Below, piece after piece: positions 15,078-55,618 of a DNA stretch of 64,000 nt. Source of the stretch: an uncultured virus (IMG/VR IMGVR_UViG_3300034378_000239) (Duplodnaviria; Heunggongvirae; Uroviricota; Caudoviricetes); the IMG/VR virus record IMGVR_UViG_3300034378_000239. The stretch is one strand, 5' to 3'. Positions within the stretch are counted from its first letter, which is position 1. Each line of letters begins with the position of its first letter. The translations under genes and the position numbers were made by a program. A model generated the notes under the pieces. That model was not told where the DNA came from. It saw nothing but the letters and a program-made list of their open reading frames with translations, and ran no database searches.

Positions 15078-15302
15078 TCAGACGCCGGCCCAGCGCCAGT
15101 CGAACTCGGCGAGCGCTGCTTCGCCCAGCTCGGTGAGGACCCACCGCCCCTCGTAATCCGTCACGAGGGGCTCAGGGCATCCGGGATGGTACCCGAGCAG
15201 CACGGGGTGAGGCACGAACTCGCGGCCGCGTCCGACCTTTTGGAGGCTCCGGCGGGCTCGGTAGGAGAGAAGGGGGATGATGTTTTCAATCTTGGTGTTC
15301 AT
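15078..15302 (-). CDS. hypothetical protein, winged-helix-like end (WVLTELG)
   Basis: GGAGGT RBS; 5' part duplicated near 17.0-17.1 kb. Confidence 0.5.
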   Translation of the reverse strand: MNTKIENIIPLLSYRARRSLQKVGRGREFVPHPVLLGYHPGCPEPLVTDYEGRWVLTELGEAALAEFDWRWAGV

Positions 15303-15417
15303 ACCCCTACCTCCGGTGAGCACCCCGAAGAGGCTCACGGGGCGCGCAAAAACCTCCTACATGTAGGTGGGGGCCTCATTTCATCTCGAAAAAGAGGAAC
15401 CGGCCCGGTCCCACCCT
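15198..15417. repeat. 220-bp direct repeat copy 1
   Basis: Nearly identical to 16996-17215. Confidence 0.95.
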
Positions 15418-16295: not shown

Positions 16296-16590
16296 CCATG
16301 ACACGCACACGATACATCACGAGACACCATGATGGGCAGGGCATAGGCCCGCTCTCGACAGCTCGCCACACGAGCGAGCGGGCTGCGCGGGCCCGGGCAT
16401 GGCTGGACCAGGAGCCGCTAGCCCCGCCGCAGTAGCCCCGGGGTGCGACTCCCCGGGCGGGGCCCGGCCGAAGAGGCCGAAAAGGAGCACACAACCATGA
16501 CACGCACACGATACATCACGAGACACTATGATGAGGGCACGAGCCCGCTCTCGACAGCTCGCCACACGAGCGAGCGGGCTGCGCGGGCCT
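16296..16590. repeat. ~95-bp duplicated gene start (MTRTRYITRH) at ~16296 and ~16495
   Basis: CCATGACACGCACACGATACATCACGAGACAC...GAGCGAGCGGGCTGCGCGGGCC occurs twice. Confidence 0.9.
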
Positions 16591-16718
16591 GGGCCCGGCG
16601 CGCGCTCGGGTGCGACCGCCTGGCCCCATCCTGGCCAACAACACGGGGCGAGGGCCTCGGCTGCCCGGGCGACGAGGAGGATGCGCCCTGGGTGGAACTT
16701 GAAACGCTGGAGGACTGA
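16497..16718 (+). CDS. hypothetical protein
   Basis: AAGGAG RBS; intact copy of the duplicated start. Confidence 0.55.
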   Translation: MTRTRYITRHYDEGTSPLSTARHTSERAARAWARRALGCDRLAPSWPTTRGEGLGCPGDEEDAPWVELETLED

Positions 16719-16719
16719 A

Positions 16720-17008
16720 CGGAACGTCGCCCCCAAGAAGAACCTGGGCCGGCTGCGGAGCCTGTCCAAGCTAACGAGGGTGTGACATGGCAGGAAAGCG
16801 CAGAAAGAAGACGCCCATCGAGAAGCTTCGGGACATCGACTACGAGCTGCTCGCGAAGATGCAGAAGCATCAGCGCGGTGGCCGCTTCGGCACGACGCTC
16901 TACGGCGACCGCGAGCTCGGCAGGGCGCTGCGGCTGGCCGAGGCCGGCCTCGTGTACGTGCATGGTCCGAGCTGGCGCGGTGGCATGAAGACGTACAGCA
17001 CGGGGTGA
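16720..17008 (+). pseudogene. displaced, inverted fragment of the tag array: orphan ...KKNLGRLRSLSKLTRV* followed by MAGKRRKK... gene running into the 220-bp repeat
   Basis: CTGTCCAAGCTAACGAGGGTGTGACATG at 16762-16789 matches the array junction in opposite orientation. Confidence 0.7.
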
Positions 17009-17215
17009 GGCACGAGCTCGCGGCCGCGTCCGACCTTTTGGAGGCTCCGGCGGGCTCGGTAGGAGAGAAGGAGGATGATGTTTTCAATCTTGGTGCTCAT
17101 ACCCCTACCTCCGGTGAACACCCCGAAGAGGCTCACGGGGCGCGCAAAAACCTCCTACATGTAGGTGGGGGCCTAATTTCATCTCGAAAAAGAGGAACCG
17201 GCCCGGTCCCACCCT
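16996..17215. repeat. 220-bp direct repeat copy 2
   Basis: Nearly identical to 15198-15417. Confidence 0.95.
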
Positions 17216-20013: not shown

Positions 20014-20859
20014 CTACAGCCGCGCCAGCGCCCGTACCTTGGCCGGGTCCACCCGCACCGCCCGGGGCGTACTCTGCACTCTCTCCACCGGGTTTCGGCG
20101 CTTGCGACGCGCTGCCTTCTTCCGACGACGCTTGCGACGCGGGTTGTCCGGGGCCTCAGCGGCCGCTGGAGGCGGCGTGGGCCTCGGCGGGGCCTTGGCC
20201 CCAGCCGGTGCTCGCCGCTTCTGTGGGGCCGCAGGCGCAGCCTCGGCCGGGTTGCGACGGCGGCGGCGCTTGGTCCTCTTCTTGGTCGTCTTGCGCCGCT
20301 TGCGCCTGCGCGGGTTCTCCGCCTTTTCCGCCTTGGCCTTTGGCGCGGCCTCGGGCTCGGGGTTGACCTTTTTGCCCTTGGCCCGAGCAGTCCCGAGCGC
20401 TATGGCCGCCGCCCGGCTCGGGGCGATCCCCGCGGCCACGATCTTCTTTCCGCGCCGAAGCATCCAGCGATAGCTTCCCCGCATCTTGAACGTCGTCAAT
20501 TTGTACGCACCGATCGTCTTGGTCTGAGCCGCCGAGCTCTTCTTCGCACCCGAGCGCTTGGTGCGGCGCTTCGTGGTCTTTGTCTTCGTGACGCGCCTCT
20601 TCGTCTTCCGCTTTTTGGTCTTGCGCTTGGTCACGCGCTTTTTGGTCTTGCGCTTGCGCGCGCCCTTCTTCGCGGCCCGCGACCTGGCCGCCTTCTTGCG
20701 CGCCCTGGTCCGCGCGGCCTTCTTGCCCGCAGCGACCCGCTTCGCGCTCTTTCTCTTGGTCTTCCGCTTTGCGGTCTTCCGCTTCTTTGCGCGCCGCTTC
20801 TTTCTCGGATTGTAGGCGGCCATTCTGTAGCTCCCTTTCTTCTTCTTCGTGACTGCCAT
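20014..20859 (-). CDS. histone/protamine-like basic protein with six NP motifs (putative virion core DNA-binding protein)
   Basis: K/R/A/T-rich, KRKTKKR repeats; YNP, VNP, ENP, RNP, DNP, RNP; ends KVRALARL. Confidence 0.8.
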   Translation of the reverse strand: MAVTKKKKGSYRMAAYNPRKKRRAKKRKTAKRKTKRKSAKRVAAGKKAARTRARKKAARSRAAKKGARKRKTKKRVTKRKTKKRKTKRRVTKTKTTKRRTKRSGAKKSSAAQTKTIGAYKLTTFKMRGSYRWMLRRGKKIVAAGIAPSRAAAIALGTARAKGKKVNPEPEAAPKAKAEKAENPRRRKRRKTTKKRTKRRRRRNPAEAAPAAPQKRRAPAGAKAPPRPTPPPAAAEAPDNPRRKRRRKKAARRKRRNPVERVQSTPRAVRVDPAKVRALARL

Positions 20860-22392: not shown

Positions 22393-23094
22393 CTATCCGC
22401 GACCGCGCCGACGGGCGATTTGGGGCACCCGCCGCGGAGGTACGATCGGCGGAGGAACTCTGGGAGGCTCCATCGGCCGGGGAGCACCCGGCGGCGGGAT
22501 CGGCACGGGGCGCCTGCCCCCAGGTGGCCTCGGAGGCTCCATCGGCCGGGGACCCGCGGGCACGGCCGGAACGCACCCGATGAACCGACCGCGAGCGTCA
22601 CGCGCGGCGCGTGTGCCCGGTGGACAAAGGACCGGAGGCCGCGGCTCATCACTTGGCGGCGTGGGACGCGGCACACCCGGAGGCCTGGGAGCTCCCTTGC
22701 AACCGAGGAAGTTGCCGGCCCAGTCGTAAAGCGGCCTCGTCCCGGGCGGGCAGAGCCTCTGCGCCGCCCCGACGCGGAGCCGAGCGCCCCCGCGACCCAA
22801 GGCGCGCGTTCGTCCACGTACCCGGGCGCCCCCGCTGGGCGTTTTGGGCCTTCGGCCCTCCCCCATGTTGTATCGGACGCATCGCATCATGGCGGTGGCG
22901 TCCTTTGGGTCGCCCATACAAACCTGCTTTCCGGTATCGGGATCGAGGGCGCACGCCCCACCACAGAGTTCGCAAGCTTCGCAGAAGGTCGTTGCCGTCG
23001 GAACCTGTCCGCTCCGCGCGCGCTGGAGTGCCGCGCCGATGCCGTAGCGGTCCCGGCAGTTGGGGTTGTAGTTTCTGCTTCCCATGCTGTACAT
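22393..23094 (-). CDS. Cys/Pro-rich protein with RDRYGIGAALQR motif
   Basis: AAGGAG RBS; N-terminus paralogous to 23541-23777; LCPPGTR x2 and RPMEPPR x2. Confidence 0.7.
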   Translation of the reverse strand: MYSMGSRNYNPNCRDRYGIGAALQRARSGQVPTATTFCEACELCGGACALDPDTGKQVCMGDPKDATAMMRCVRYNMGEGRRPKTPSGGARVRGRTRALGRGGARLRVGAAQRLCPPGTRPLYDWAGNFLGCKGAPRPPGVPRPTPPSDEPRPPVLCPPGTRAARDARGRFIGCVPAVPAGPRPMEPPRPPGGRRPVPIPPPGAPRPMEPPRVPPPIVPPRRVPQIARRRGRG

Positions 23095-23540: not shown

Positions 23541-23777
23541 TCAGGGCATGATCACCCGCTGGCGCACGTACCTGCAGTTGTCGTAGCACTCCTGCCACTC
23601 GGGAAAGCCCCAGTGCGGGTACAGCCGGGACATGTTGTGGCACCATGCGGCGCAGCCGCCCTTCGTGCGACCGGCCGGCGCTTGAGGAGCTCGGGCCCGC
23701 GCGCGCTGAAGCGCCGCGCCTATGCCGTAGCGGTCCCGGCAGTTCGGACGGTAGGTTCTTGAGCCGATCGCGTACAT
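23541..23777 (-). CDS. small Cys-rich protein with RDRYGIGAALQR motif
   Basis: TGATG-coupled to the upstream tagged gene. Confidence 0.7.
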   Translation of the reverse strand: MYAIGSRTYRPNCRDRYGIGAALQRARARAPQAPAGRTKGGCAAWCHNMSRLYPHWGFPEWQECYDNCRYVRQRVIMP

Positions 23778-24259
23778 CACACCCTCGTGAGCTTGCTGAG
23801 CTTCTTGAGGTCGCCTCCAGCCGGATTTCGCCTGGCCCGGCGGCGACGTCTCGGTGGGTTCTCGAAAGCACGGTGCCCCCGATGCCGCAGGTTCATGACC
23901 GTGTGCATCGTCGTGCTCCGCTCGGCAAACGGCCGCCAATACTCCGCCTCGATCCATACGGAATCCGCCAGATTCTTCCGAATGAGCTCCTTTGCCGCCT
24001 TTATCGCGCCGGGCAGATCGAGGCCGAAGTCCTGGTAGTCGCCGAGCCACTCGTTTTCCTTGGCCGCATGAAGGAGAAGCCTCACCGAAAGCGCCCTGAT
24101 CCCCTTCTCGGTCTGCGCAGCCTTCTTGAGCTGCGCCCACGACACGGGTTTCCACGCATCCTTGTCGCTGCGATGAAGCTCGAAGTCACGGCGGCTGCCG
24201 ACTTCCTTCCGCTCATCGTGGTGGATGACTACGGGGTCCTCTTTCTTCTTTCTCGCCAT
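23777..24259 (-). CDS. LSKLTRV-tagged cargo protein
   Basis: Starts MARKKK; ends RRNPAGGDLKKLSKLTRV. Confidence 0.8.
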   Translation of the reverse strand: MARKKKEDPVVIHHDERKEVGSRRDFELHRSDKDAWKPVSWAQLKKAAQTEKGIRALSVRLLLHAAKENEWLGDYQDFGLDLPGAIKAAKELIRKNLADSVWIEAEYWRPFAERSTTMHTVMNLRHRGHRAFENPPRRRRRARRNPAGGDLKKLSKLTRV

Positions 24260-24287
24260 CTGGGATCGCTCTTTTGCCTTTTCGACT

Positions 24288-24617
24288 TCAGTCGCCGATG
24301 TGATCGGCGATCATCTCCTTGACCATGGCCTCGCAGGCCTTGCCCGTGGTCCCGTACGCGCCGTAGTGGCCATGGCCCTCGTGGTCCTTGAAATGCCCGC
24401 GCCAGCGGTAGGTGTTCGACTCCTCCATGGACATGTGCGAGCCGTCAGGACGCCGGAGCCCGGGAAGCACCTCGTTTGGACCGCTGTAGTAGCACCAGTA
24501 CGGAAAGCCGCGGTAGCCGCCCTCGATGCCGGCCCACTTCTTCCCGAACGAGAACTTAGAGGCCGCAAACAGCATGATGCCGCCCAAGATCACGAGAGGT
24601 AGCATGGGAGTCGCCAT
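24288..24617 (-). CDS. N-terminally membrane-anchored protein (untagged)
   Basis: Hydrophobic N-terminus; TGATG coupling. Confidence 0.7.
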   Translation of the reverse strand: MATPMLPLVILGGIMLFAASKFSFGKKWAGIEGGYRGFPYWCYYSGPNEVLPGLRRPDGSHMSMEESNTYRWRGHFKDHEGHGHYGAYGTTGKACEAMVKEMIADHIGD

Positions 24618-25270
24618 CACACCCTCGTGAGCTTCGTGAGCGCCCGAAGCCGGGACGGGTTTTCGGCCGGGCGCCGCCGGCCGCGCTCGCGCTTGGGCGC
24701 GCCCTCAGGGCGCCTCTTGACCTGCTTGCCGACCCAGATGAGCGCCTTGCCCTTGGTCTTGAAAGTCTTCTGTCGCTCATCGCCGTCCTCGTCTTCCCAG
24801 GTCACCCGGAACTTCGAAGGCTTGCAGGATCGGATCTCCTCAATCCTGTAACCAGCGATCTCCTCCTCCTCGAAAACCTCGGTTTCGGCCCGAGCGCCAA
24901 GGAGGAAGTTCGGCTTCGGGCCCTTGGGGTTCCCCCTCCCCGTCGCCCAGATGTAGTTCGACAGGATCCTCGAGCCGTACTTCCGCGCGCGCACGTGCTT
25001 ACGGGGCACCACGTTCCCCGCCTTGGTCTTTACGAGCTCGCCCTTCTTGTAGGGCCCCCGCGGCGCCGTGACCTTGACCTCCAAGTGACCCTCGCGCTCG
25101 GGCGACCCGGCCTGGACCCAGCCGTAGCCCCCCGTGATCACCCGAACGACCTTCACCGGCACCAGACCGGAAAACGTGTCCAGGTACGCCAGCGCGCCCG
25201 CGTAGTAGGTCTTCGCCGCCGCCACCCGCTGGCCATGCGTGAGCTCGAACGTGGGGTTTCTCTTCGCCAT
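24617..25270 (-). CDS. LTKLTRV-tagged cargo protein (two NP-delimited modules)
   Basis: MAKRNP...GRGNP...AENPSRLRALTKLTRV. Confidence 0.8.
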   Translation of the reverse strand: MAKRNPTFELTHGQRVAAAKTYYAGALAYLDTFSGLVPVKVVRVITGGYGWVQAGSPEREGHLEVKVTAPRGPYKKGELVKTKAGNVVPRKHVRARKYGSRILSNYIWATGRGNPKGPKPNFLLGARAETEVFEEEEIAGYRIEEIRSCKPSKFRVTWEDEDGDERQKTFKTKGKALIWVGKQVKRRPEGAPKRERGRRRPAENPSRLRALTKLTRV

Positions 25271-25635
25271 CACATCCTCGTCAGCTTGCTGAGCGCCCGA
25301 GAGCGGTCGGGAGCCGGGTTGAGGGTGGGGTTCTTCCGAGGGGCCAGGTCGAAGTCCTTGTTCTTCTTCGAACCTGTCGCCTGGGCAATGTTGGCCGCAA
25401 TCTCCATGGCCGTGATGACCCCACCGTACTTCCGACCCATCCAATCGTACCCATCACGAAGGATCCGATGCTCGCCGAATTCCTTGGGCTTCGTCACCGT
25501 GTAGGTGATGCCCCTGTGCTTGGCGACCATCCCCTTCGCCTTTTTGTACTTGAACCTGAGGGTCAACGTCCCGTCGGACGACTTCGCATCGTAGTCGTCC
25601 GGCACGTAGTACACCGGGTTGCGTTTGCGTGCCAT
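25270..25635 (-). CDS. LSKLTRM-tagged cargo protein
   Basis: MARKRNP...RKNPTLNPAPDRSRALSKLTRM. Confidence 0.8.
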   Translation of the reverse strand: MARKRNPVYYVPDDYDAKSSDGTLTLRFKYKKAKGMVAKHRGITYTVTKPKEFGEHRILRDGYDWMGRKYGGVITAMEIAANIAQATGSKKNKDFDLAPRKNPTLNPAPDRSRALSKLTRM

Positions 25636-26399
25636 CACACCCTCGTGAGCTTGCTGAGGCTCTTCAGCCGGCCGGGGTTCTTCTTGGGGTCCCGTTTCGC
25701 AGGGGGAGCGATCCTTTTGCTGGGGTTCTTCCGCTTCTGGCTGTCCCGAATGACCTTCTGCCGGAAGAGCTTGGCCTCGCGTACCGCCTCCGCGCGGGTG
25801 CGACCGCTCGGCCCCCACACAAACGGCTTGGGAAACGGCTTGCCAGCCTCGTCCAGAAACCTCGTCGAATATGAGCCACCGCGCGTGTAGGTGACCTCGA
25901 TCATATACGGCCTCGGGATCAGCTTCGTGGCCTTGGCCCGATGCAGGGTCGTTCCCTTTCCGTCGTCCGGGAACGGCCGCTTGCGCCCCCAACCGACCGG
26001 CGGCCTTCTCGCTGTGTTCCGTTTCATGGTCTTGCCCCTCTTCGGGTTCGAGCGAAGGCTCGAGCTGAGGTCGCTGATCAGTGAGCCGATCACGGCCTTC
26101 ATCGATGACTTGCGCACCATCGCGTAGATGTATCCGTCCACCTTCGCATTCCCGGAGGCCTCATTCTCCGCGCCGTAGAGCACCACGTAGATCTCGCGAG
26201 ACTCCCTCCCCTTGCGCTTCAGGTCACCCACGAACCAAAGCCCGTAATCCCACTGCCGGGGCATCGTCGCGTGGACCTCCCGCACGGTGAAGGTCCCCAC
26301 ACGCGTAAGCCCCTTCTTGAACATGCTGACGACCTTGGCTGGCTTGTATTCGGCCGGCAGGTACACCGCCAGCCGATCTTGTGGTTTGCGTCTTGCCAT
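25635..26399 (-). CDS. LSKLTRV-tagged cargo protein (two modules)
   Basis: MARRKP...RSNP...RKNP...KKNPGRLKSLSKLTRV. Confidence 0.8.
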   Translation of the reverse strand: MARRKPQDRLAVYLPAEYKPAKVVSMFKKGLTRVGTFTVREVHATMPRQWDYGLWFVGDLKRKGRESREIYVVLYGAENEASGNAKVDGYIYAMVRKSSMKAVIGSLISDLSSSLRSNPKRGKTMKRNTARRPPVGWGRKRPFPDDGKGTTLHRAKATKLIPRPYMIEVTYTRGGSYSTRFLDEAGKPFPKPFVWGPSGRTRAEAVREAKLFRQKVIRDSQKRKNPSKRIAPPAKRDPKKNPGRLKSLSKLTRV

Positions 26400-27019
26400 C
26401 ACACCCTCGTGAGCTTGCTGAGTGCCCGGAGCCGCCCCTTGTCGGGGTTCCTCTTGGGGGCCTTGGTCTTGGTCTCGGGGTTGCGGGAGCGGCCCGACTT
26501 TCCACCCGGAGCGATCCCTGGGTTCTCCCGCTCCACGAGCTGCTGGCCGAGCTTCCTCTGGTCGATGGCAAGAGCCGTGCGGCGTCCCTTGGCGGTCAAG
26601 CCGTAGCCCCATGCCGAGCGCTTCAAAAGGCCTCTCTTCGTAAGTTTCCTCGCCTCCCACTTGCCCGGGTCCACCTGTCCGTGCTTGAGGGCAAGCACGA
26701 GCACGTGCTTCTCGTCCAGCGTCAACCTCGTCGCGACCGTCTTCGGGTTGCGTTTGCTACGGGAAGCGATCTTCTTGCGGCGCGCCTTTCTCGAAGCGAG
26801 CTCGCCGCGGAGCCGCTTGAGCGTCTTCTCGATGTCCTTGATCTCCGAGCGGTGAAGTGCCTTCGCAACACGACCATCGGCCTTCTTGAGCATCGCCTTC
26901 TCATCGCGAAGCGCCTTTGCGTGGATCTTGACGAGTTCCTTCAGATCTTCATCTGAAGGACGAAGACCCAGGGTTGCGCGCCAACTCAGGTTCTTCTTGG
27001 GGTCTCGTTTTCGTGCCAT
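26399..27019 (-). CDS. LSKLTRV-tagged cargo protein (coiled coil + winged-helix-like module)
   Basis: KRNP..LTKRGLL....YGLTAKG..ENP..RNP..KRNPDKGRLRALSKLTRV. Confidence 0.8.
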   Translation of the reverse strand: MARKRDPKKNLSWRATLGLRPSDEDLKELVKIHAKALRDEKAMLKKADGRVAKALHRSEIKDIEKTLKRLRGELASRKARRKKIASRSKRNPKTVATRLTLDEKHVLVLALKHGQVDPGKWEARKLTKRGLLKRSAWGYGLTAKGRRTALAIDQRKLGQQLVERENPGIAPGGKSGRSRNPETKTKAPKRNPDKGRLRALSKLTRV

Positions 27020-27308
27020 CACACCCTCGTCAGCTTGCTGAGACTCCGCAGCCGGTCTGCGGCCGGGTTCTTCTTGGGTTTGGACGAGTCCCGTTTGGTG
27101 GGGGCCCAGTATTCGATGCCGCCCTCGGGGCCGTGAACATACGTCCCGGGGCTGAGCGGAACCGTCGGGCTAGGCAGCCCCTTGGGCATGCCGCATCCAT
27201 GGCCGCGGGCACGCACGTACGCTTGACGCGAATGGTCTTGCCGCCGCGCCGATAGGTGTAGCCCTTGCGCGTGTACGCCTTTCTCCTGACCGTGATCTTC
27301 CGTGCCAT
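27019..27308 (-). pseudogene. frame-split chimeric tagged gene
   Basis: MARKITVRRKAYTRKGY... frame differs from the frame carrying MPKGLP...KKNPAADRLRSLSKLTRV; the break lies near the edge of a 92-bp duplication. Confidence 0.65.
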
Positions 27309-27752
27309 GGGTGTTTCCCTAGATCTTCGAGAGCTCGCGGAGCCCTCTGCCTACGGGGTTGCGCCTCGGCGACGTCTTCCGTGCATGTGCCGCTCGCGGC
27401 TTCTTCGGGTTTTTCTTCTTTCCGATCCCGGCCGCCTTGGCTGCCCTGGGCAGCTCGAACATGTACCCCTTCGCCGCAAGATTCCGGATCCCGTTTAGGC
27501 GCTTTAGGATCTGAGAGCGCTGGGCGTAGAGCTTCCTCACGCTCGGGATCTTCGCGTCCGTCCCGAGCCACCAGTCGCTGAACTTCTCGTAGAAGTCCTC
27601 GGCGCTCTCGAGGTACGCCTGCGCGAGATTGATGGCTTCGGACGCACCCCAGAGCATGTCGGCCCAGTATTCGATGCCGTCCTCGGGGCCGTGAACATAC
27701 GTCCCGGGGCTGAGCGGAACCGTCGGGCCAGGCAGCCCCTTGGGCATGCCGC
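27103..27752. repeat. 92-bp direct repeat (27103-27194 and 27661-27752)
   Basis: Encodes GMPKGLP(S/G)PTVPLSPGTYVHGPE(G/D)GIEYWA in both genes. Confidence 0.92.
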
Positions 27753-27786
27753 CCTCCAAGTTCTTCTTCGGAGTCTTTTTTCGCAT
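27319..27786 (-). CDS. cargo protein with variant tag (RRNPVGRGLRELSKI)
   Basis: GAGGAG RBS; KKNP and RRNP motifs. Confidence 0.75.
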   Translation of the reverse strand: MRKKTPKKNLEGGMPKGLPGPTVPLSPGTYVHGPEDGIEYWADMLWGASEAINLAQAYLESAEDFYEKFSDWWLGTDAKIPSVRKLYAQRSQILKRLNGIRNLAAKGYMFELPRAAKAAGIGKKKNPKKPRAAHARKTSPRRNPVGRGLRELSKI

Positions 27787-31399: not shown

Positions 31400-32326
31400 C
31401 TAGCCGTGGCGTGCGAGGTAGTCCGAGTAGGTGAGGCCGAGGCCCTCGTCGAGCGAGACCTCGGGTACCCAGCCGAGCGCGCGCATGCGCGTCGAGTCGG
31501 TGACCTTGCGCGGCGTGCCATCGAGCTCGCCTGAAAAGCCGATCTCTCCGTCAAAACCCGTCAAATTCGCCACTTTTGCCGCGAGGTCGGAGATGCTCAG
31601 CTCGTCGCCCGAGCCGACGTTCACCGGACCGAGGCGGCTATAGCGCTCCATGGCGAGCACACATGCCAAGGCGACGTCATCGACGTAGGTGAGCTCCCGG
31701 AGCGCGGCGCCGGTGCCCCAAAGCGTCACGCGGCCGCGGCCCTTCTTTCGTGCATGATGGAACCTGCGAATGAGCGCAGGGATCACGTGCGAGCTCTCGG
31801 CATCGTAGGTGTCGCCCGGACCGTAGAGATTCGAGGGCTGGACCGAGATGAAGTTCGCACCGTGCTGGCGGCGATACGCATCACAGAGCTCGATGGCCGC
31901 AATCTTCGCGATCGCGTACGCGCGATTCGTGTCCTCGAGCGGCCCGGATAGAAGCGCCTCCTCTTTCATGGGCTGGTCGCAAAGCCGCGGGTAAATGCAC
32001 GAGCTCCCGAGCATGAGGAGCTTCTTGGTCCCGAAGAGGTGCGCGCACTCGATGACGTTCGAGGCGATCTGGAGGTTTTTGTGCAGGAACTCGGCCGGGC
32101 GCGTCTTGTTCGCGAGGATCCCCCCGACCACGCCAGCGGCCACGAAGACCAGGGCGGGCCTCTCCTCGTCGAACCATTCCATGGTCTGGTGCTGGTCGGT
32201 GAGGTCGAGCGCGGCGTGGCCCCTCCCGATGATGTCTTTGTACCCGAGCTCGCGCAGCTTGCGACAGATCGCAGAGCCGACCATGCCGGTATGGCCAGCG
32301 ACGTAGACCTTGACATCACGATCCAT
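31400..32326 (-). CDS. fcl: GDP-L-fucose synthase
   Basis: VAGHTGMVGSAI, VGGILAN, LGSSCIYP, YAIAK, NLYGPGD, SHVIPALI, WGTG..LRE. Confidence 0.95.
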   Translation of the reverse strand: MDRDVKVYVAGHTGMVGSAICRKLRELGYKDIIGRGHAALDLTDQHQTMEWFDEERPALVFVAAGVVGGILANKTRPAEFLHKNLQIASNVIECAHLFGTKKLLMLGSSCIYPRLCDQPMKEEALLSGPLEDTNRAYAIAKIAAIELCDAYRRQHGANFISVQPSNLYGPGDTYDAESSHVIPALIRRFHHARKKGRGRVTLWGTGAALRELTYVDDVALACVLAMERYSRLGPVNVGSGDELSISDLAAKVANLTGFDGEIGFSGELDGTPRKVTDSTRMRALGWVPEVSLDEGLGLTYSDYLARHG

Positions 32327-32557
32327 TCCGGGCTCCTTTCCTTGGGTCCTTGCCGAGCCCCACCCGGACGACGGCCTCGCCCACTCTTCGCACGAGTTCG
32401 TCGCGTGGCATCCCGCGTTCGCTCCAACCAAGCACGATTCGTTCGTTCGCCGTGAGCCCCGGTGGCGGAAAGACCGTGACGTAAAGGGCGCCCTCTTCCT
32501 CGATCGCCCATACGTGGACCGGATACGGACAAAGCCCGTCGGGAACGAGGGCGGCCC

Positions 32558-33589
32558 CTACGTCCTTTCCTCGCGCCTTTTTTTCTCCCATTTCGCCAGC
32601 TCCAGATCGTGCATGACCATCTCGCGCACCAGCTCCTCGAACGAAACTCGCGGCTCCCAGCGGAGCTCGGTCACGGTCTCGACGATGTCGCCGCAAAGGA
32701 AATCGACCTCGGTCGGCCTGAGATAGCGCGGATCGATCCGAATGTAGTCCGAGGCCCTAAGGTCCAAAAAACCGAACGCGACGTCGGCGAGCTCCCTCAC
32801 CGAATGCGAGACGCCGGTGGCGACTACCCAGTCGCGCGGCACATCATGCTGCACGATCCGCCAGATCGCGTCGGCGTAGTCGCGCGCATGGCCCCAGTCG
32901 CGCTTCGCGTCGAGATTGCCGAGGAAGAGCACATCCTGCAGCCCAAGCTTGATCCTGGCCGCGGCCATCGTGATCTTCCGCGTCACGAAGGTCTCGAGGC
33001 GCCTGGGCGACTCGTGATTGAACAGGATCCCGTTCGCGATGTGAAGCCCGTACCCTTCGCGGTAGTTCTGGGCCAAGTGGTACGCGAACGTCTTGGCCGC
33101 CGCGTATGGCGATCGCGGCTGAAACGGCGTTTTGACCGACTGCGGCGGCGGTGAGCCCCCGAACATCTCCGAGCTCGACGCCTGATAAAACCGCGGCCTC
33201 TTGCCGCTTCTGACCTGGTACCAGCGCATGGCCTCGAGCATGCGAAGCGCCCCGAGCGCGACGGTGTCGGCGGTGTACACTGGCTGGTCGAACGACACGC
33301 GAACGTGCGACTGCGCGGCGAGGTTGTAGATCTCGTCGGGCTCGACGTCGCCGATGATGCGCTCGAGCGATGAGGCATCTTGAAGGTCACCATAGTGAAG
33401 AACCAGGCGCCGGTTCGAAACATGCGGACCTTGGTACAGATGCTCGATCCGCTCGGTCGCAAACGTGCTCGTCCGCCTTATGATTCCATGCACGGAGTAG
33501 CCGAGCTGAAGGAGAAGGTCGGCAAGGTAGGAGCCGGTCTGCCCCGTGATGCCGGTGATCAGCGCGGTTTTCGTGGCCACGACGCGCAT
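32558..33589 (-). CDS. gmd: GDP-mannose 4,6-dehydratase
   Basis: [74 protein letters not shown]. Confidence 0.97.
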
Positions 33590-33609
33590 GGTACACTCCG
33601 CAAAGCCTC

Positions 33610-34587
33610 ATGCCCATCGAAAAAGCCCTCCTCGCCACCATCAACTATGACCATCCGCAACGGGGGATGCTCGATGCTTTCGTGAAGGTCTTCGGGGCCC
33701 CAAACGTGGTCGATTGCGACTACTTCCATTCGGGCGGCGAGAAGCCCGACGACATGCTCGTCCGAATGGCGAGGCAACATAGGCCCGACTGGATCTGGCT
33801 GCAGCTTCAGGATTCGAGCAAGATCACCGCGGACGCGATCAAGCAGATCCGCGCCGAGCTGCCCCAGACCGTCGTGACCCACTGGACGGGAGATCTCAGG
33901 CCGCAGGTCTCGCACTACCTCGGGACGATCTGCGAGGTCACGCACGCTACGTTTTGCTCGTCCGTCGGCCAGATCGACCTCTTCAAGAAGGCGGGGGCCT
34001 CTTTCTGCCAATACGTCCAGATCGGCCTCGACTGGGACGAGGACGTGGCCGCGCCCGAAAAGCCGCCGCCTTTTCCGATCCCCGACGTCGTCTTCTGCGG
34101 CGGCTACTACGGCGACTCGTTCCCGGGCACGAAGCAGCGCGTCGATGCGATCCTGGCGCTCAAACGCGCAGGCATCGGGATCGGCGTGGTCGGACAGGGA
34201 TGGTCGGCCGGCGGCTACAACGTGCTCGGGCACTGCCACGTCAAGGAGCAGATCCACGTCTGGCGCGCGGCCAAGATCTGCCTGAACGTCAACCACTACA
34301 ACGACATCCCGCTCTACTACTCCGACCGGCAGCTCATCGCCATGGCGAGCGGGCGCCCGACCGTGTGCCACTACGTCCCCAAGCTCGAGTTCGAGTTCCA
34401 AAACTGGACCCACTGCGTCTGGTACCGGAACACGAACGAGCTCGTCGAGATCGTCCAGGCTCTCCTTCGTGACCCGGAGATGAGGCAGCGCATCGGAGCC
34501 TGCGGCAAGAAAGAGGTCGTCCAAAACCACACTTGGGAGGCGCGGATCCGCGTGCTCCTTCCCACGATCGAGGAACTCAGACCATGA
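33610..34587 (+). CDS. CgeB-like (GT-B) glycosyltransferase
   Basis: DVVFCG, AKICLNVN, YYSDR...MASG, L..P..R.RIG..G...V..NHTW..R. Confidence 0.85.
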   Translation: MPIEKALLATINYDHPQRGMLDAFVKVFGAPNVVDCDYFHSGGEKPDDMLVRMARQHRPDWIWLQLQDSSKITADAIKQIRAELPQTVVTHWTGDLRPQVSHYLGTICEVTHATFCSSVGQIDLFKKAGASFCQYVQIGLDWDEDVAAPEKPPPFPIPDVVFCGGYYGDSFPGTKQRVDAILALKRAGIGIGVVGQGWSAGGYNVLGHCHVKEQIHVWRAAKICLNVNHYNDIPLYYSDRQLIAMASGRPTVCHYVPKLEFEFQNWTHCVWYRNTNELVEIVQALLRDPEMRQRIGACGKKEVVQNHTWEARIRVLLPTIEELRP

Positions 34588-35582
34588 CGAAGCCCCTTCG
34601 TGTGCTCATCACCGGAGCCTGCGGCTTCATCGGGCACCACGTCGCGCGCGCCATGGTCGATGCCGGCCACGAGGTCGTCGCCCTCGACTGCCTCGATGAA
34701 ACCAGCTCGCTCGACCGCCTGCGGGACTTTCACGATCACGAGCGCTTTCGGTTCGTGTGGCACGACTTGAAGTCGCCGATCAACGACCTCGTGGCCTCGC
34801 TGCTCGGCGACATCAACGCCATCTTTCATCTGGCCGCATCGACCCACGTCGACCGCTCGATCCAGAACTCGATGCCGTTCGTGCTCGACAACGTCGTCGG
34901 CACCGGTCACCTGCTCGAGTACGCGAGATCGCTTCCTGACCTCGTTCTCCTCCTCAACTTCTCGACCGACGAGGTCTTTGGGCCGGCGCCCGAGGGCGTG
35001 GCCTACAAGGAGAACGACCGCTACGACCCGCGCAACCCATACTCGGCGACCAAGGCGGCGGCCGTCGAGCTCGCCCATGCCTACGCCAACACCTACGGCC
35101 TACCGGTGATCACGACGCACTGCATGAACGTGTTCGGCGAGCGTCAGCACCCCGAGAAGTTCGTGCCCCTCATCATCCGCCTTCTTCTGCTCGACGCCCC
35201 GGTCCAGATCCACGCGAGCCCCGACAAAACTGCGCTCGGCTCGCGCTTCTACATCCATGCCGGCGCCGTCGCCAGCCTCATGGTTCAGATCCTCGACCGC
35301 GTCCGCGGTCACGAGTGGCTGCCACCGGACAAGCTGAACATTCCCGGCGAACGCGAGGTCGACAACCTCGCCCTGGCCCGGATGGTCGCCGACTGCGTCG
35401 GCAAGAAGCTTCACTACCAGCTCGTCGACTTCCACTCCACCCGGCCCGGCCACGACCTTCGTTACGCCCTCGACGGCGAGAAGATCGAAAAGCTTGGGTT
35501 CTCGATGCCGTCGAGCTTCGCGGACTCGCTTCGCGCCACGGTTTCATGGTACTTGGCCAACAGGAACTGGCTGCTCCTTTGA
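34584..35582 (+). CDS. rfbB: dTDP-glucose 4,6-dehydratase-like NAD-dependent dehydratase
   Basis: ITGACGFIG, HLAASTHVDRSI, STDEVFG, NPYSATKA, NVFGERQHPEKFVP, RPGHDLRYALD. Confidence 0.9.
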   Translation: MTKPLRVLITGACGFIGHHVARAMVDAGHEVVALDCLDETSSLDRLRDFHDHERFRFVWHDLKSPINDLVASLLGDINAIFHLAASTHVDRSIQNSMPFVLDNVVGTGHLLEYARSLPDLVLLLNFSTDEVFGPAPEGVAYKENDRYDPRNPYSATKAAAVELAHAYANTYGLPVITTHCMNVFGERQHPEKFVPLIIRLLLLDAPVQIHASPDKTALGSRFYIHAGAVASLMVQILDRVRGHEWLPPDKLNIPGEREVDNLALARMVADCVGKKLHYQLVDFHSTRPGHDLRYALDGEKIEKLGFSMPSSFADSLRATVSWYLANRNWLLL

Positions 35583-36385
35583 CAGGCGCCACCGACATCG
35601 TTTTCGCCCGGACCAGACATCAGTACGACTCCTACATCGACTTCTGGTCCCTGGTCGAGCTCTCCGAGTTTTCGACGTGCTTCATCGACGAGATCCGGAT
35701 CGACGAGGCGAAGTGCTTCATCTTCACGCCATGGAACGGCGAGGTCGACCCCCACCTTCAGGCCGAGCTTTCGAGTGGGCGAGACAAGAAGGCGACGCTC
35801 GCCTGGTGGTGCCTTGAGCGCTTCGACGGGATGCCGGTGCCTTATCAGGATGCCCTTGAGCAAGCCGCCGCCTTCGTGGACGAGATGTGGGTCAGCGACC
35901 GCTGGATCTCGTCCTTCGATGAGCGCCTCAAATACGTTCCGCTCGGCAGCCACCCCGGCCTCGGCAACCCGCGCCTCGATCCCGTCTACGACTTCACCCA
36001 CCAAAGCTATGCCTGGGGCCGAAGACAGAGCATGTACAACACGCTTCGGGGCATGGGGCTTCGCGAAGGTCCGAGCACCTGGGGCGACGAGCGGGACGCC
36101 GTCCTTCGCCGCAGCCGACTCGTCCTCAACCTCCAGCAGTACCCGGATCCCGTGACCGCGCCGCTTCGCTTCGCGCTGGCAGCGGCCTACGGCCTTCCCG
36201 CCGTCTCGGAAACGATCAAGGACCCTCACCCGCTCGAGGGCATCGTCTCCTGCGCCGACTACGATGAGATCCCCGCGCTCGTGCGAGCGGTGCTCGCTCA
36301 TGGTGGCGAGAAGATGGCCGAGGATCTCCACGCGCGCCTTTGCGTCGAGCTCACGTTCCGAAAAGGAGTCGAGGGGGCGGTGTGA
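35579..36385 (+). CDS. putative glycosyltransferase (GT-B-like)
   Basis: WGDERDAVLRRSRLVLNL...LRFALAAAYGLPAVSE. Confidence 0.7.
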   Translation: MTGATDIVFARTRHQYDSYIDFWSLVELSEFSTCFIDEIRIDEAKCFIFTPWNGEVDPHLQAELSSGRDKKATLAWWCLERFDGMPVPYQDALEQAAAFVDEMWVSDRWISSFDERLKYVPLGSHPGLGNPRLDPVYDFTHQSYAWGRRQSMYNTLRGMGLREGPSTWGDERDAVLRRSRLVLNLQQYPDPVTAPLRFALAAAYGLPAVSETIKDPHPLEGIVSCADYDEIPALVRAVLAHGGEKMAEDLHARLCVELTFRKGVEGAV

Positions 36386-37299
36386 GCGCGGTTCACCCAG
36401 AGACCGGCCGAGCGTACATCGCCGTCATGCCGAGCGACGGCGCGTTTACGGACATCTGGTCGTGCTATGAGGCCGTGGCGGCACGATGCGCTTGGCTAAG
36501 TGTGATCAGGCCGTCGCTCTTTTTGGATCTCTTGCTCGCGCGCAGAGACGAGCCGACTCTGTTCGTTCACTGGGCACCGAGCATGGTGGCGCCAGCGTCC
36601 CTCCCGGAGGACCGCAAGGCGCTCGTCTTCGCCGTCTACTCCGAAGCCCTCGACGAGGACGAGCGCGTCATGCTCCCCGACCACGTACGTGACTGGCGCA
36701 ACTTCGCCGTGCTCGCCCCCAGGCTCGATGGGGTCTTTGCTCACACCCCGGATATGGTGAGCTCGATCGCGAGGCGGCTTGCGCGGCCGAGCTTCCTGCT
36801 TCCGGTCGGCTGGGATCCGGTCATGGGCACCCCCAGGTGGCAAAGGCCCAAGGACCACGAGGCCCTGTTCGCGGGCTCGATGATCGGGCGCCGGGCCCGA
36901 CTCGTCCCACTTCTCGCAAAGCACCTTGCGCTCACCATCTTGCACGGCGTGTACGGCAAGAACATGAACGACGCGATGAACAGCGCGAAGACGACGCTTT
37001 ACATCGCCCACAGCGATGTCCAGTCGTACAGCACCTGGCGGATCTGGCAAGCACTCGCCTCGTCATCCATGCTGGCCACCGAGGTCGGCGACTGGTGGCC
37101 GCTTTCCTCCTCGCTCTGCTTTTCGCTCCCCAAGCTGCGCCCGGGCAACGTCTCGGATGTCGCGCGCATGATCGGCTCGATCACGCGCGAAGAAGCCGTG
37201 GGCTGCGCCATGGCGCTCCACGACACACTTCGCCATTTCACCACGAGCTTTTGCCTCGATGAGTACGTCGTGAGAGAAACCGCGGAGATCACCAGATGA
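36382..37299 (+). CDS. putative glycosyltransferase (GT-B-like)
   Basis: LFAGSM..RR, GVYG....AMNSAKTTL.I...RIWQAL. Confidence 0.7.
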   Translation: MSAVHPETGRAYIAVMPSDGAFTDIWSCYEAVAARCAWLSVIRPSLFLDLLLARRDEPTLFVHWAPSMVAPASLPEDRKALVFAVYSEALDEDERVMLPDHVRDWRNFAVLAPRLDGVFAHTPDMVSSIARRLARPSFLLPVGWDPVMGTPRWQRPKDHEALFAGSMIGRRARLVPLLAKHLALTILHGVYGKNMNDAMNSAKTTLYIAHSDVQSYSTWRIWQALASSSMLATEVGDWWPLSSSLCFSLPKLRPGNVSDVARMIGSITREEAVGCAMALHDTLRHFTTSFCLDEYVVRETAEITR

Positions 37300-38411: not shown

Positions 38412-38857
38412 CCGTGCGCCCGGCCACGAGCGTCTTCGACGCGCTCGCCATGCGCCGGGTCCGCAACACGTGTCGCGCGTTCATGACGCGCGACCAGAGC
38501 CGGATCTCCGTCCTTCGCCAGCTCCGGTGGTGGTTCGCGAGGCCGCCCTCCGTGCATGCTTACGTCGCCGACTATCAGGGCGACACCATCGGATACGGCC
38601 TTCTCGTCGAGGACCTCGGACGCGCCTGGCTGACCGGAGGCCTCATCCCAAGCGAGCGAAGCCGCGGCTTCGGCACCGAGGTCTTCCGCTTTCTCGCGCA
38701 CGAGGCCGGGCGGCTCAGGCTCACGCCGTATCTCGAGGTTCGGGCGTCGAACCTCGCTGGACGTCGCGTCTACAAGAAGCTCGGCTTCGTCGAGATCAGG
38801 CGCAGCGGCGACATCCTCACCATGAGAACCAGGCCGTGCCCCGAGTCAACTACGTGA
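38408..38857 (+). CDS. GNAT-family acetyltransferase
   Basis: RSRGFGT, LEVRASN...RVYKKLGF. Confidence 0.85.
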   Translation: MTVRPATSVFDALAMRRVRNTCRAFMTRDQSRISVLRQLRWWFARPPSVHAYVADYQGDTIGYGLLVEDLGRAWLTGGLIPSERSRGFGTEVFRFLAHEAGRLRLTPYLEVRASNLAGRRVYKKLGFVEIRRSGDILTMRTRPCPESTT

Positions 38858-40903: not shown

Positions 40904-40919
40904 CGCTGGCTTTTGCGCC

Positions 40920-41540: not shown

Positions 41541-41543
41541 GGG

Positions 41544-43605: not shown

Positions 43606-43636
43606 GATGAGAGAAACGACGCGTGCGCCCCGCGGT

Positions 43637-54886: not shown

Positions 54887-55618
54887 CTAGACGAGCAGAG
54901 GCACGCCAGCGATCCCCCACAGGTTCACGAATACGTGGACCCTGACCGTGTTCGGGTTGAAGAACGTCATGGTCAGCAGCTGGTTGTTCTGCGACCCGAA
55001 CTTCCTCCAGTCTACGCACTCGATCTCTTTCTCGAATCCGTAGATCAGAGTCCAGACGCCGAAGGACTGGACGGTCTGCGACGCACGCCGCATGTTGGGC
55101 TCCTGGCCGGACCGGGAGTCCTGCAGAAGCACCATGAGCGGCGTGCCCGGGTTGATGATCAGGGTGGGCGTGGTCGTGCTGACCTCGAACGCGATGACGG
55201 CAATGTAGTACGGGATGAAGAAGTCCGCGTCACCGGCATCGACCGCGAGGTTTCCGAACGCGTTGCTTGCGATCCCCGCGGTCCCGAGCGAGTTGATCCC
55301 GATCACGTGGCAGTCGCAACGTGGCGGGATCGGCTTGCAGATCTGCCCCGGGCGCTGGGTGGTCAGACGACCGTGGCCCGCGTCCGTGGGAGAGTCCCCC
55401 CAGTTCGGGGTGCACGGATCGCCCTCACCGGTGCGCGCGCGAACGCGCTGCATCGAGCTCAGGCCGCCCTCCTGCCACGACCCGACGTTGTAGCGGCCGC
55501 CGTAGCGTGCCCTGTACCCCCTCGCCCCGATCCTGTACTCGTCGAGCTGTTTTTCGACGAGGCGCAGATTCTCCTTCATGAACGCTCTGCGCTGTGCGAT
55601 TCCGTCAAAAGGAGGCAT
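54887..55618 (-). CDS. candidate major capsid protein (single jelly-roll-like) with N-terminal extension
   Basis: Strong AAGGAGGGG RBS, own terminator, beta-rich C-terminal ~140 aa ending LTMTFFN....VHVFVNLWG. Confidence 0.55.
   Translation of the reverse strand: MPPFDGIAQRRAFMKENLRLVEKQLDEYRIGARGYRARYGGRYNVGSWQEGGLSSMQRVRARTGEGDPCTPNWGDSPTDAGHGRLTTQRPGQICKPIPPRCDCHVIGINSLGTAGIASNAFGNLAVDAGDADFFIPYYIAVIAFEVSTTTPTLIINPGTPLMVLLQDSRSGQEPNMRRASQTVQSFGVWTLIYGFEKEIECVDWRKFGSQNNQLLTMTFFNPNTVRVHVFVNLWGIAGVPLLV

What the first reader, a model, noticed from the sequence alone, without database searches (positions are those of the whole stretch)
23775..27786. Array of unrelated cargo genes sharing a C-terminal NP..RLxxLSKLTRV tag: candidate virion-loading or sorting system
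Seen: six minus-strand genes with no visible similarity in their bodies end in nearly the same peptide: DLKKLSKLTRV (23777), RLRALTKLTRV (24617), RSRALSKLTRM (25270), RLKSLSKLTRV (25635), RLRALSKLTRV (26399), RLRSLSKLTRV (27019). A seventh ends GLRELSKI (27319). Each tag follows a basic xxNP motif, and nearly all proteins start MA(R/K)(K/R). The membrane-anchored gene inside the array (24288-24617) has no tag. Codons vary synonymously (CTC/CTG, and TCC/CTA in the 16.77 kb copy) and upstream residues vary conservatively, pointing to selection on the peptide. Inference: the tag is a portable address, for example for packaging diverse effector or DNA-binding proteins into the virion core for delivery at infection. 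Alternatively it is a degron: T-R-V-COOH fits the class I PDZ-ligand consensus, and Tsp/Prc and HtrA proteases read hydrophobic C-termini through PDZ domains. I know of no described system with this tag.
Basis: partly seen in the sequence, partly recalled or inferred. Interest (0 to 1): 0.95.

Follow-up and report, generated by a model that had tools for sequence, protein, structure and literature searches.

The report
Shared C-terminal tail on unrelated proteins
An uncultivated virus-like mobile element and a few metagenomic relatives end more than a dozen unrelated small proteins in the same positively charged tail (…NP-x-RLRxLSKLTRV), an undescribed portable peptide that probably docks them to one common, still unidentified partner.

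Summary
Seven ORFs in the window end in ...L[ST]KLTR[VM]-stop: six on the minus strand at 23.8-27.1 kb and one on the plus strand at 16.78 kb. An eighth ends in the shorter GLRELSKI. A profile of the tail scores only these seven among 1065 window ORFs.

Database searches found 11 more proteins with the full tail and one with the short form. They appear to lie in dense arrays on five or six short JGI metagenome contigs. The tail is at the extreme C-terminus in all but one of them (…KLTRIP). The bodies are heterogeneous (one is a GNAT acetyltransferase) and are shuffled as modules.

I found a second shared feature. The modules are bracketed by basic "NP" hinges: 49 NP dipeptides against about 6 expected. 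A protamine-like protein nearby uses the same pattern.

The last three codons of the tail also carry the Shine-Dalgarno sequence of the next gene, so peptide and DNA constraints overlap. No DNA of relatives could be fetched.

Best reading: a real, portable docking tail, most likely for incorporation into the element's nucleoprotein or particle. Neither the partner nor the function is shown. A degron and a pure DNA-junction by-product remain rivals. I class it as a new variant of a known kind of system.

The parts
23777..24259 (-). A1, 160 aa, ends ...RRNPAGGDLKKLSKLTRV; its stop overlaps the next ATG (TGATG)
   Evidence: stored as P0002
24288..24617 (-). A2, 109 aa, N-terminal hydrophobic segment, no tail; its ATG overlaps the stop of A3
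   Evidence: no Pfam, PHROG or NCBIfam hit
24617..25270 (-). A3, 217 aa, two modules plus tail ...AENPSRLRALTKLTRV
   Evidence: N-module = P0007 (72% identity), C-module = P0015 (70% identity)
25270..25635 (-). A4, 121 aa, ends ...NPAPDRSRALSKLTRM
   Evidence: stored as P0001
25635..26399 (-). A5, 254 aa, ends ...KRIAPPAKRDPKKNPGRLKSLSKLTRV
   Evidence: the same extended tail sits on an unrelated body in P0008
26399..27019 (-). A6, 206 aa, ends ...PKRNPDKGRLRALSKLTRV
   Evidence: its N-part recurs inside P0012
27019..27308 (-). A7: tail frame 27019-27189 (56 aa as called, P0010) plus an upstream MARKITV... ORF in another frame; the coding frame switches near 27215
   Evidence: GC3 frame plot, sequence
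27319..27786 (-). A8, 155 aa, short tail variant ...RRNPVGRGLRELSKI
   Evidence: ortholog P0009 (86% identity) keeps GLRELSKI
16443..16785 (+). Plus-strand copy: tail ...APKKNLGRLRSLSKLTRV (stop 16783-16785) in ORF 16528-16785; upstream body ORF 16443-16718 is in another frame; next ATG lies 1 nt after the stop
20014..20859 (-). Protamine/H1-like protein (P0085, 281 aa, 41% K+R); all 6 Asn lie in NP; ends ...RRNPVERVQSTPRAVRVDPAKVRALARL. Probably part of the same system
54887..55618 (-). Beta-sandwich (jelly-roll-like) protein; candidate particle protein in the same long minus-strand gene block

Best explanation
The tail is a real, portable C-terminal peptide module kept by selection on the protein. 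It consists of a flexible, strongly cationic linker punctuated by basic NP hinges (...[KR][KR]NP...PKKNP-x1-3-), followed by a short terminal element, RLRxL[STN]KLTRV-COOH.

I infer that it docks a fast-changing set of small proteins to one common partner made by the element. These proteins include enzymes (GNAT) and many very basic proteins. The most likely partner is the element's condensed DNA or nucleoprotein core, or the inside of its particle. The proteins would then be incorporated and delivered with the genome, as the T4 capsid-targeting sequence does for internal proteins and the encapsulin loading peptide does for cargo.

The same DNA has a second job. Its last codons (ACG AGG GTG TGA TG) carry the Shine-Dalgarno sequence and start of the next gene. 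The conserved junction (KKNP - tail - stop/start - MARKRNP) probably serves as a recombination point that shuffles, fuses and splits cargo modules.

Shown: the tail, its C-terminal position, its spread on unrelated and reshuffled bodies, the NP pattern, and the charge.
Inferred: a common partner, particle or nucleoprotein targeting, and the role of NP as a hinge, DNA-binding turn or processing site.
For: (1) Specificity. Only the 7 window ORFs match the tail profile. In 1.84 billion representatives there are 13 hits at E<=0.001, all ending on the last residue.

(2) Relatives. 11 non-window proteins carry the full tail and 1 carries the short form.

(3) Heterogeneous, shuffled bodies. With the last 20 aa removed, 7 of 171 protein pairs are similar at E<1e-3, and those 7 are module sharings. 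A3 = P0007 module + P0015 module. P0016 = a new coil + the whole P0011 body. P0008 and P0018 carry the extended tails of A5 and A1 on other bodies. P0014 is a GNAT.

(4) Peptide-level signal. Ser is encoded by AGC in five copies and by TCC in one, Leu by CTC/CTG/CTA/CTT. pN/pS is 0.63 over 11 codons and 0.38 over the last 7. The RLRx part varies in DNA but not in peptide (alignment).

(5) Overlapping stop-start junctions do not need the tail. Tail-less junctions occur at 28240 (TAATG), 53133 and +14682 (TGATG).

(6) One copy lies on the other strand, in another gene block (16.78 kb).

(7) The last 32 aa carry a net charge of +6 to +15 in 19 of 19 proteins, while the bodies range from -13 to +30.

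(8) NP pattern. 49 NP dipeptides against 6.2 expected, and 0 of 5000 shuffles reach the observed count. Non-array ORFs of the window have 28 against 20 expected. In P0085, which is 41% K+R and lies 3 kb downstream on the same strand, all 6 Asn are followed by Pro.

(9) The array is co-oriented in one long minus-strand block with a jelly-roll-like protein, a Gly-rich fibre-like protein and small membrane proteins.

(10) Precedent. T4 internal proteins are diverse and share only a targeting sequence (PMC3012670, passages). Encapsulin cargo proteins share a C-terminal loading peptide (PMC7355545, passages).
Against: No partner was identified, and there are no virion or expression data.

The particle type is unknown. 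No capsid, portal, terminase, packaging ATPase or protease family was detected in the window. The beta-sandwich protein matches capsid jelly rolls only at Z 6-7.7, alongside GOLD and discoidin domains. Foldseek gave no hit at E<=0.001 in the PDB or BFVD libraries.

The 28-nt DNA core is nearly identical in all 7 copies and includes the next gene's ribosome-binding site. AGG, which makes up 17% of Arg codons, is used in 7 of 7 copies. Part of the conservation is therefore at the DNA level. The pN/pS values rest on few sites and on non-independent copies.

All 7 tails abut a downstream start codon. Two of the 7 tails need a frame change to join their upstream body. One relative ends ...TRIP, not ...TRV. 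About 13 kb of the 76,985-nt contig lies outside the window.
Confidence: 0.45

Rival explanations
1. By-product of a DNA or RNA junction element. A conserved cassette at gene boundaries serves translational coupling (SD plus overlapping stop/start) and/or homologous recombination between cassettes. The peptide is merely what the fixed frame encodes.
For: The core CTCAGCAAGCTSACGAGGGTGTGATGG is near-identical in 7 of 7 copies and contains GAGG 5 nt before the ATG. All 7 tails abut a start codon. The rare AGG codon is used in 7 of 7 copies. Bodies are exchanged at the tail. Direct repeats CCCAAGAAGAACC flank some junctions (alignment).
Against: Synonymous recoding occurs, including AGC to TCC. 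The peptide is conserved upstream of any plausible ribosome site, where the DNA varies. Tail-less overlapping junctions exist. There is no conserved RNA structure (-1.56 kcal/mol, 0 covarying pairs) and no Rfam hit. The divergent relative P0019 keeps ...RLTALNKLTRV. Internal fusion junctions drop the tail, while the new C-terminus keeps it (P0016).
Confidence: 0.15
2. C-terminal degron or PDZ ligand. The free ...[ST]-[KR]-[VMI]-COOH end is read by a PDZ protease (Prc/Tsp, HtrA) or an AAA+ unfoldase, which limits the lifetime of potentially harmful effector proteins.
For: Strictly terminal position in 18 of 19 proteins. TRV, TRM and the short form SKI all fit the recalled class I PDZ pattern [S/T]-x-hydrophobic-COOH. 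Cargo includes enzymes (GNAT).
Against: P0018 ends TRIP. Conservation extends about 30 aa upstream (NP hinges, PKKNP), far more than a terminal degron needs. No PDZ or protease family was found in the window. The PDZ and ClpX motifs are recalled, not tested.
Confidence: 0.12
3. Short linear motif for a hub that is not the particle. The tails bind a host factor, or one another. P0085 ends in a similar VRALARL. This would assemble mixed complexes on DNA during infection.
For: Leu at every third residue with flanking basic residues. A similar ending on the protamine-like P0085. Very basic bodies.
Against: No test was possible. The similarity of the P0085 ending is short and could be chance.
Confidence: 0.12
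4. Export or modification tag: a positively charged C-terminal secretion signal (type IV-like), or an acceptor peptide for the element's many glycosyltransferases.
For: Cationic C-termini are used by type IV secretion substrates (recalled). The window encodes at least five glycosyltransferase-like proteins plus GDP-sugar enzymes, and the tail has conserved Ser/Thr.
Against: No secretion-system gene was detected in the window. There is no evidence linking the glycosyltransferases to the array, which lies 3-18 kb away.
Confidence: 0.06

Closest known systems
Capsid targeting sequence (CTS) of phage T4 internal proteins (IPI-III, Alt)
   Same: A diverse, fast-evolving set of small proteins, including enzymes, shares only a short conserved terminal peptide that addresses them to the particle interior (PMC3012670, passages read). 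The genes are clustered.
   Different: The T4 CTS is N-terminal and is cut off by the prohead protease (recalled). Here the conserved element is C-terminal, is preceded by cationic NP hinges, and no protease or HK97-type head genes were detected. Particle incorporation is not shown.
Encapsulin cargo-loading peptide (CLP)
   Same: Body, then flexible linker, then a short conserved C-terminal peptide, on unrelated cargo proteins encoded next to each other. The peptide alone suffices for loading (PMC7355545, passages read).
   Different: No encapsulin or HK97-fold shell gene was detected in the window. The sequence differs from the recalled CLP consensus (Gly/Ser/Leu-rich). The tail here is strongly basic, and the cargo genes number 8 or more and are shuffled.
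Start-associated sequences of cluster K mycobacteriophages (recalled, no paper seen)
   Same: A conserved DNA word, including the ribosome-binding site, lies immediately upstream of many start codons in one orientation.
   Different: Those lie in intergenic DNA. Here the word is translated as the end of the upstream protein, shows synonymous recoding, and is conserved as a peptide in relatives.
Adenovirus core proteins (pVII, pX/mu, pVI C-terminal peptide) (recalled)
   Same: Very basic DNA-condensing proteins and short basic terminal peptides associated with the packaged genome. Precursors are punctuated by short conserved motifs.
   Different: No homology. Cleavage at NP is only my conjecture. 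The host domain is different.

Membership tests
T4-type capsid targeting sequence | Conserved leader at the N-terminus of internal proteins | tested here: not met
   The strongly conserved element is at the C-terminus. An N-terminal MA[RKT]K[KR]xNP occurs in only about 8 of 19 proteins.
T4-type capsid targeting sequence | Removal by a prohead protease encoded by the virus | tested here: inconclusive
   No protease family was found in the window by Pfam, PHROGs or NCBIfam. About 13 kb of the contig is unseen.
T4-type capsid targeting sequence | Tagged proteins present inside virions | not testable with these tools
   No proteomics is available. No sequencing run was listed.
Encapsulin cargo-loading peptide | Short conserved C-terminal peptide after a flexible linker on unrelated cargo | tested here: met
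Encapsulin cargo-loading peptide | Adjacent HK97-fold encapsulin shell gene | tested here: inconclusive
   No such family was detected among the window proteins scanned. The only structural candidate modelled is a beta-sandwich.
Class I PDZ ligand / C-terminal degron | [S/T]-x-hydrophobic at the free C-terminus (recalled consensus) | tested here: met
   TRV, TRM or SKI in 18 of 19 proteins; P0018 ends TRIP.
Class I PDZ ligand / C-terminal degron | A PDZ-domain reader and effect on stability | not testable with these tools
   No PDZ family was found in the window. The host is unknown.
Start-associated / translational-coupling DNA element | Conserved DNA with SD directly upstream of start codons | tested here: met
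   GAGG lies 5 nt before the ATG in 7 of 7 copies. TGATG overlap in 6 of 7.
Start-associated / translational-coupling DNA element | Conservation explained by DNA alone (no peptide-level selection) | tested here: inconclusive
   pN/pS is 0.38-0.63 with synonymous recoding, and the peptide is conserved in relatives. No DNA of relatives could be fetched.
Membrane-targeting amphipathic helix (MinD/FtsA type) | High alpha-helical hydrophobic moment of the terminal segment | tested here: not met
   muH(100 deg) is about 0.5, and about 30% of shuffles reach it. Periodicity peaks at 115-120 deg, and mean hydrophobicity is negative.

The most novel reading that the evidence does not exclude
A previously unrecognised lineage of virus-like elements (60-80 kb, jelly-roll-like protein, absent from IMG/VR) uses a modular cargo system. 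The C-terminal RLRxLSKLTRV tail loads an interchangeable set of effector enzymes and DNA-binding proteins onto a protamine-like nucleoprotein core for delivery with the genome. The basic NP motifs that bracket every module are maturation cleavage sites. This makes gene fusion and fission neutral, which would explain the rampant module shuffling.
Probability: 0.15. Interest if true: 0.85.

Novelty: new variant of a known kind. Interest (0 to 1): 0.62.

Why it matters
Terminal address peptides are how phages and protein compartments load diverse cargo, for example the T4 CTS and encapsulin CLPs. They are also useful tools for packaging foreign proteins.

This would be a new C-terminal, cationic version in a lineage whose particle genes current viral catalogues do not recognise. 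It comes with two unusual properties. One is a strict NP punctuation of modules. The other is a junction that both encodes the tail and starts the next gene.

If the partner is found, the array becomes a ready list of the element's host-directed effectors (GNAT, and possibly ART- and nucleotidyltransferase-like enzymes), and the tail becomes a candidate loading handle.

If it turns out to be a DNA-level artefact, it is still a clear example of how a coupling or recombination cassette can impose a peptide on many proteins.

Tried and rejected
DNA of relatives. Degenerate tail patterns were scanned in IMG/VR (15 and 9 loci), JGI metagenome contigs (4 loci) and GTDB representative genomes (65 loci). 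All were single matches without tail context.

Relatives of the beta-sandwich protein. None in IMG/VR, in the phage records or in the plasmids.

No whole genome is held for the window. Sequencing runs: none was listed.

RNA element. No Rfam family, no tRNA, no conserved structure.

Membrane-targeting helix: not supported.

Promoter and terminator scan of 19.5-32 kb: 0 promoter-like sites; terminator-like sites were not clearly above the shuffled sequences.

AlphaFold2 of A3 with a 3-sequence alignment failed (mean pLDDT 44), so no cargo fold was obtained.

PDB sequence search with A6: 0 hits. Atlas search: only unnamed viral clusters for the beta-sandwich protein. For A5 there was only a weak resemblance to a nucleotidyltransferase-like model, below the bar for naming a family.

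hhalign of the beta-sandwich family against 53131-54048: no similarity.

Co-folding of the tail with 54887-55618 could not be run.

Literature. 'KLTRV' anywhere in the full text gave 2 papers, both unrelated by title and abstract. That was my only search for the tail itself. A search for a described virus group gave nothing relevant in the listing.

Our-findings look-ups by place and by sequence were empty.

Full report
OBSERVATION. A six-frame search for the tail core found eight matches. Seven of them are followed at once by a stop codon. Six are on the minus strand (stops at 23777, 24617, 25270, 25635, 26399, 27019) and one is on the plus strand (stop 16783-16785). The eighth is internal and unrelated.

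The DNA of the seven copies is close to CTCAGCAAGCTSACGAGGGTGTGATGG. In six copies the TGA overlaps the ATG of the next gene (TGATG). In the plus-strand copy the ATG follows the stop after one base. A profile of the tail scores 42.5-63.1 bits on these seven ORFs and at most 7.5 bits on the other 1058 window ORFs of 30 aa or more. With tails removed, BLASTP sees no similarity among A1, A3, A4, A5, A6 and A8. A7 shares a short N-terminal piece with A8. None of the array proteins matches Pfam, PHROGs or NCBIfam.

WHAT THE ELEMENT IS. No genome is held for the window. The protein database records a contig of 76,985 nt for the window's own proteins, so about 13 kb is unseen. The window encodes:
- two integrase-like proteins, a repressor-like HTH protein, a RusA-like resolvase and a PrimPol-helicase;
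- a PAPS-reductase-like protein;
- a large GDP-sugar and glycosyltransferase cluster.

No recognisable terminase, portal, HK97 capsid, packaging ATPase or protease was found. From about 56 kb down to about 17 kb nearly all genes are on the minus strand. In order they are small N-terminally hydrophobic proteins, an 804-aa Gly-rich fibre-like protein, the sugar genes, the array, and a protamine-like gene.

The product of 54887-55618 has 64 database homologues at 43-91% identity, on contigs up to 77-84 kb, and several contigs hold two copies. An AlphaFold2 model built from 37 sequences gives a beta-sandwich (residues 100-240, pLDDT 75-91; overall 63). Its best structural match is a capsid protein of the membrane-containing archaeal virus HCIV-1 (6h9c_Z, Z 7.7, rmsd 2.7 Å, 108 residues). 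Other viral jelly rolls follow, among them PBCV-1, STMV and P23-77 VP17 (Z 6.1). GOLD and discoidin domains score the same, and Z below 8 can be a mere common fold. Foldseek gave no hit at E<=0.001 in the PDB or BFVD libraries. A virus-like element with a jelly-roll particle protein is therefore plausible but not shown. The family is absent from IMG/VR, from the phage records and from the plasmids.

RELATIVES. Searching 5.8 billion protein clusters with the tail alignment gave 3 non-window proteins, and 11 after adding new tails to the alignment. An exhaustive HMM search of 1.84 billion representatives gave 13 hits at E<=0.001, 6 from the window and 7 from elsewhere. Every match ended on the last residue of its protein.

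In all, 11 non-window proteins carry the full tail (P0007, P0008, P0011-P0019) and P0009 carries the short GLRELSKI form. All are JGI metagenome proteins. Relatives therefore have dense arrays too. This grouping is an inference from lengths, not from contig names. One tail is not strictly terminal (P0018...KLTRIP). P0019 is more divergent (...GRLTALNKLTRV, E = 2 but visibly the same tail).

BODIES ARE HETEROGENEOUS AND SHUFFLED. Among 19 family proteins with the last 20 aa removed, 7 of 171 pairs are similar at E<1e-3, and all seven are module sharings.
- A3 is the P0007 module followed by the C-terminal module of P0015.
- P0016 is a new helical part fused to the whole body of P0011. Its junction reads ...YNPGTKTMKKQNPL..., that is, hinge - remnant - start motif, with the tail gone.
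- P0012 joins a new N-part to the N-part of A6.
- P0008 and P0018 carry the extended tails of A5 and A1 on other bodies.

P0014 is a GNAT acetyltransferase (Pfam E 4e-10). P0008 has a weak match to RNA 2'-phosphotransferase (E 0.017, far below the family cut-off). A5 shows a weak resemblance at model level to small nucleotidyltransferases. The last two are leads only.

A SECOND SHARED FEATURE: BASIC NP HINGES. The 19 proteins hold 49 Asn-Pro dipeptides against 6.2-6.3 expected. Half of all Asn are followed by Pro, and 0 of 5000 shuffles reach 49 (maximum 16). Other ORFs of the window have 28 against 20 expected, with 8.5% of Asn followed by Pro.

The NP motifs usually read [KR][KR]NP. They sit near the N-terminus (MARKRNP), at every module junction, and 11-14 residues before the C-terminus. 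The last 32 residues carry a net charge of +6 to +15 in 19 of 19 proteins, while the bodies range from -13 to +30.

Three kb downstream on the same strand, 20014-20859 encodes a 281-aa protein with 41% Lys+Arg. All six of its Asn lie in NP, and it ends ...RRNPVERVQSTPRAVRVDPAKVRALARL. It uses the same pattern and looks like a DNA-condensing protein. What NP does is open. It could be a hinge, an SPKK-like DNA-binding turn, or a processing site. Asn-Pro autocleavage is known to me from reovirus mu1 and FlhB (recalled, not tested).

PEPTIDE OR DNA? Both constraints are present.

For a DNA role:
- the last codons ACG AGG GTG TGA TG provide GAGG 5 nt before the next ATG;
- AGG makes up 17% of Arg codons in the window yet is used in 7 of 7 tails;
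- all seven tails abut a start codon.

For peptide selection:
- Ser is encoded by AGC in five copies and by TCC in one, and Leu by four codons;
- the RLRx part varies in DNA while keeping the peptide;
- pN/pS is 0.63 over 11 codons and 0.38 over the last 7, though with few sites and non-independent copies;
- overlapping stop-start junctions exist without the tail at 28240 (TAATG...RRMRRKK), 53133 and +14682;
- the junction has no conserved RNA structure and no Rfam match;
- one copy lies in another gene block on the other strand;
- relatives keep the peptide on new bodies, and fused genes keep it only at the new C-terminus.

The decisive test needs the relatives' DNA, and I could not fetch it. 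Pattern scans of IMG/VR, JGI contigs and GTDB genomes returned only chance matches. My single metagenome scan demanded a TGA stop.

Two tails are problematic. GC3 frame plots show that the coding frame changes shortly before the tail in A7 (near 27215) and in the 16.7 kb gene (near 16650). These are frameshifted genes, assembly errors, or very short tagged ORFs of 56 and about 34 aa.

MECHANISM. The terminal 11 residues have Leu or Val at every third position. Their alpha-helical hydrophobic moment is unremarkable: about 30% of shuffles reach it, and the periodicity peaks at 115-120 degrees. A MinD-type membrane anchor is therefore not favoured.

The architecture is body, then cationic flexible linker, then a short invariant end, on many unrelated and partly enzymatic proteins. 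This is that of a docking peptide read by one partner. The closest known systems are the T4 capsid targeting sequence and the encapsulin loading peptide. [quoted passage not shown] For encapsulins, the loading peptide is a C-terminal peptide sufficient for loading (PMC7355545, passages).

Several features point one way: the extreme positive charge, the protamine-like neighbour with the same pattern, and co-orientation with the candidate particle genes. I therefore rate tethering to the element's nucleoprotein or particle as the most likely use (0.45 including the peptide claim). The claim that the tail is a genuine protein-level module I hold at about 0.8.

The rivals are:
- a DNA-junction by-product (0.15);
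- a C-terminal degron or PDZ ligand (0.12). TRV, TRM and SKI fit the recalled class I pattern and TRIP does not;
- a hub motif for a host factor or for tail-to-tail assembly (0.12);
- an export or glycosylation tag (0.06).

The planned co-fold of the tail with 54887-55618 never ran because the queue was full.

NOVELTY. I found nothing in print on this tail, but my only search for it was 'KLTRV' in full text, which gave 2 unrelated papers. Earlier notes of this scan describe other arrays with shared terminal peptides in other elements. They are unchecked AI notes and none concerns this tail. The kind of system, a terminal address peptide on diverse cargo, is known. New here are the C-terminal cationic form, the NP-bracketed modules with frequent fusion and fission, the dual-use junction, and the lineage, which is invisible to viral catalogues. 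I class it as a new variant of a known kind, interest 0.62.

Noticed in passing
window 20014-20859 (-): Protamine/histone H1-like protein: 281 aa, 116 K+R. All 6 Asn are followed by Pro. Its end (...DPAKVRALARL) resembles the tail.
   Followed up: partly
window 27150-27330 (-) and 16440-16790 (+): In two tagged genes the GC3-supported coding frame changes shortly before the tail (A7 near 27215; the plus-strand gene near 16650). These could be a frameshift, an assembly error or very short tagged ORFs. The plus-strand gene is also preceded by a truncated duplicate (MTRTRYITRH..., 16298-16435).
   Followed up: partly
window 23541-23777 (-), 22393-23091 (-), 51347-51775 (-): Another shared module. 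Two Cys-rich proteins just downstream of the array start MY[AS][IM]GSR.Y.PNCRDRYGIGAALQRAR. A similar DRHGLGAALQRYR lies inside a third Cys-rich protein in the structural block.
   Followed up: no
window 54887-55618 (-): Beta-sandwich protein family with 64 database homologues on contigs up to about 84 kb, often two copies per contig. It is absent from IMG/VR, the phage records and the plasmids. This may mark an uncatalogued lineage of virus-like elements.
   Followed up: partly
window 46917-49331 (-): 804-aa protein made largely of Gly-rich GGxGG-type repeats with a globular C-terminal part. It is fibre- or spike-like and has no family hit.
   Followed up: no
window 31400-45802: About 14 kb of GDP-sugar synthesis genes (GDP-mannose 4,6-dehydratase, epimerases, DegT aminotransferase), methyltransferases and glycosyltransferases, inside the long gene block of a mobile element.
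   Followed up: no
window 15078-15338 (-) and 16900-17136 (-): Two ORFs with near-identical N-terminal halves (VSLFGV[LF]TGGRGM[NS]TKIENII.LLSYRARR), flanking the plus-strand tagged gene. They may be a repeat.
   Followed up: no
window 2981-4109 (-): Two adjacent ORFs begin with long (V/G/A)-repeat stretches (VVVVGVAVGVVVAVAVVVGV...).
   Followed up: no
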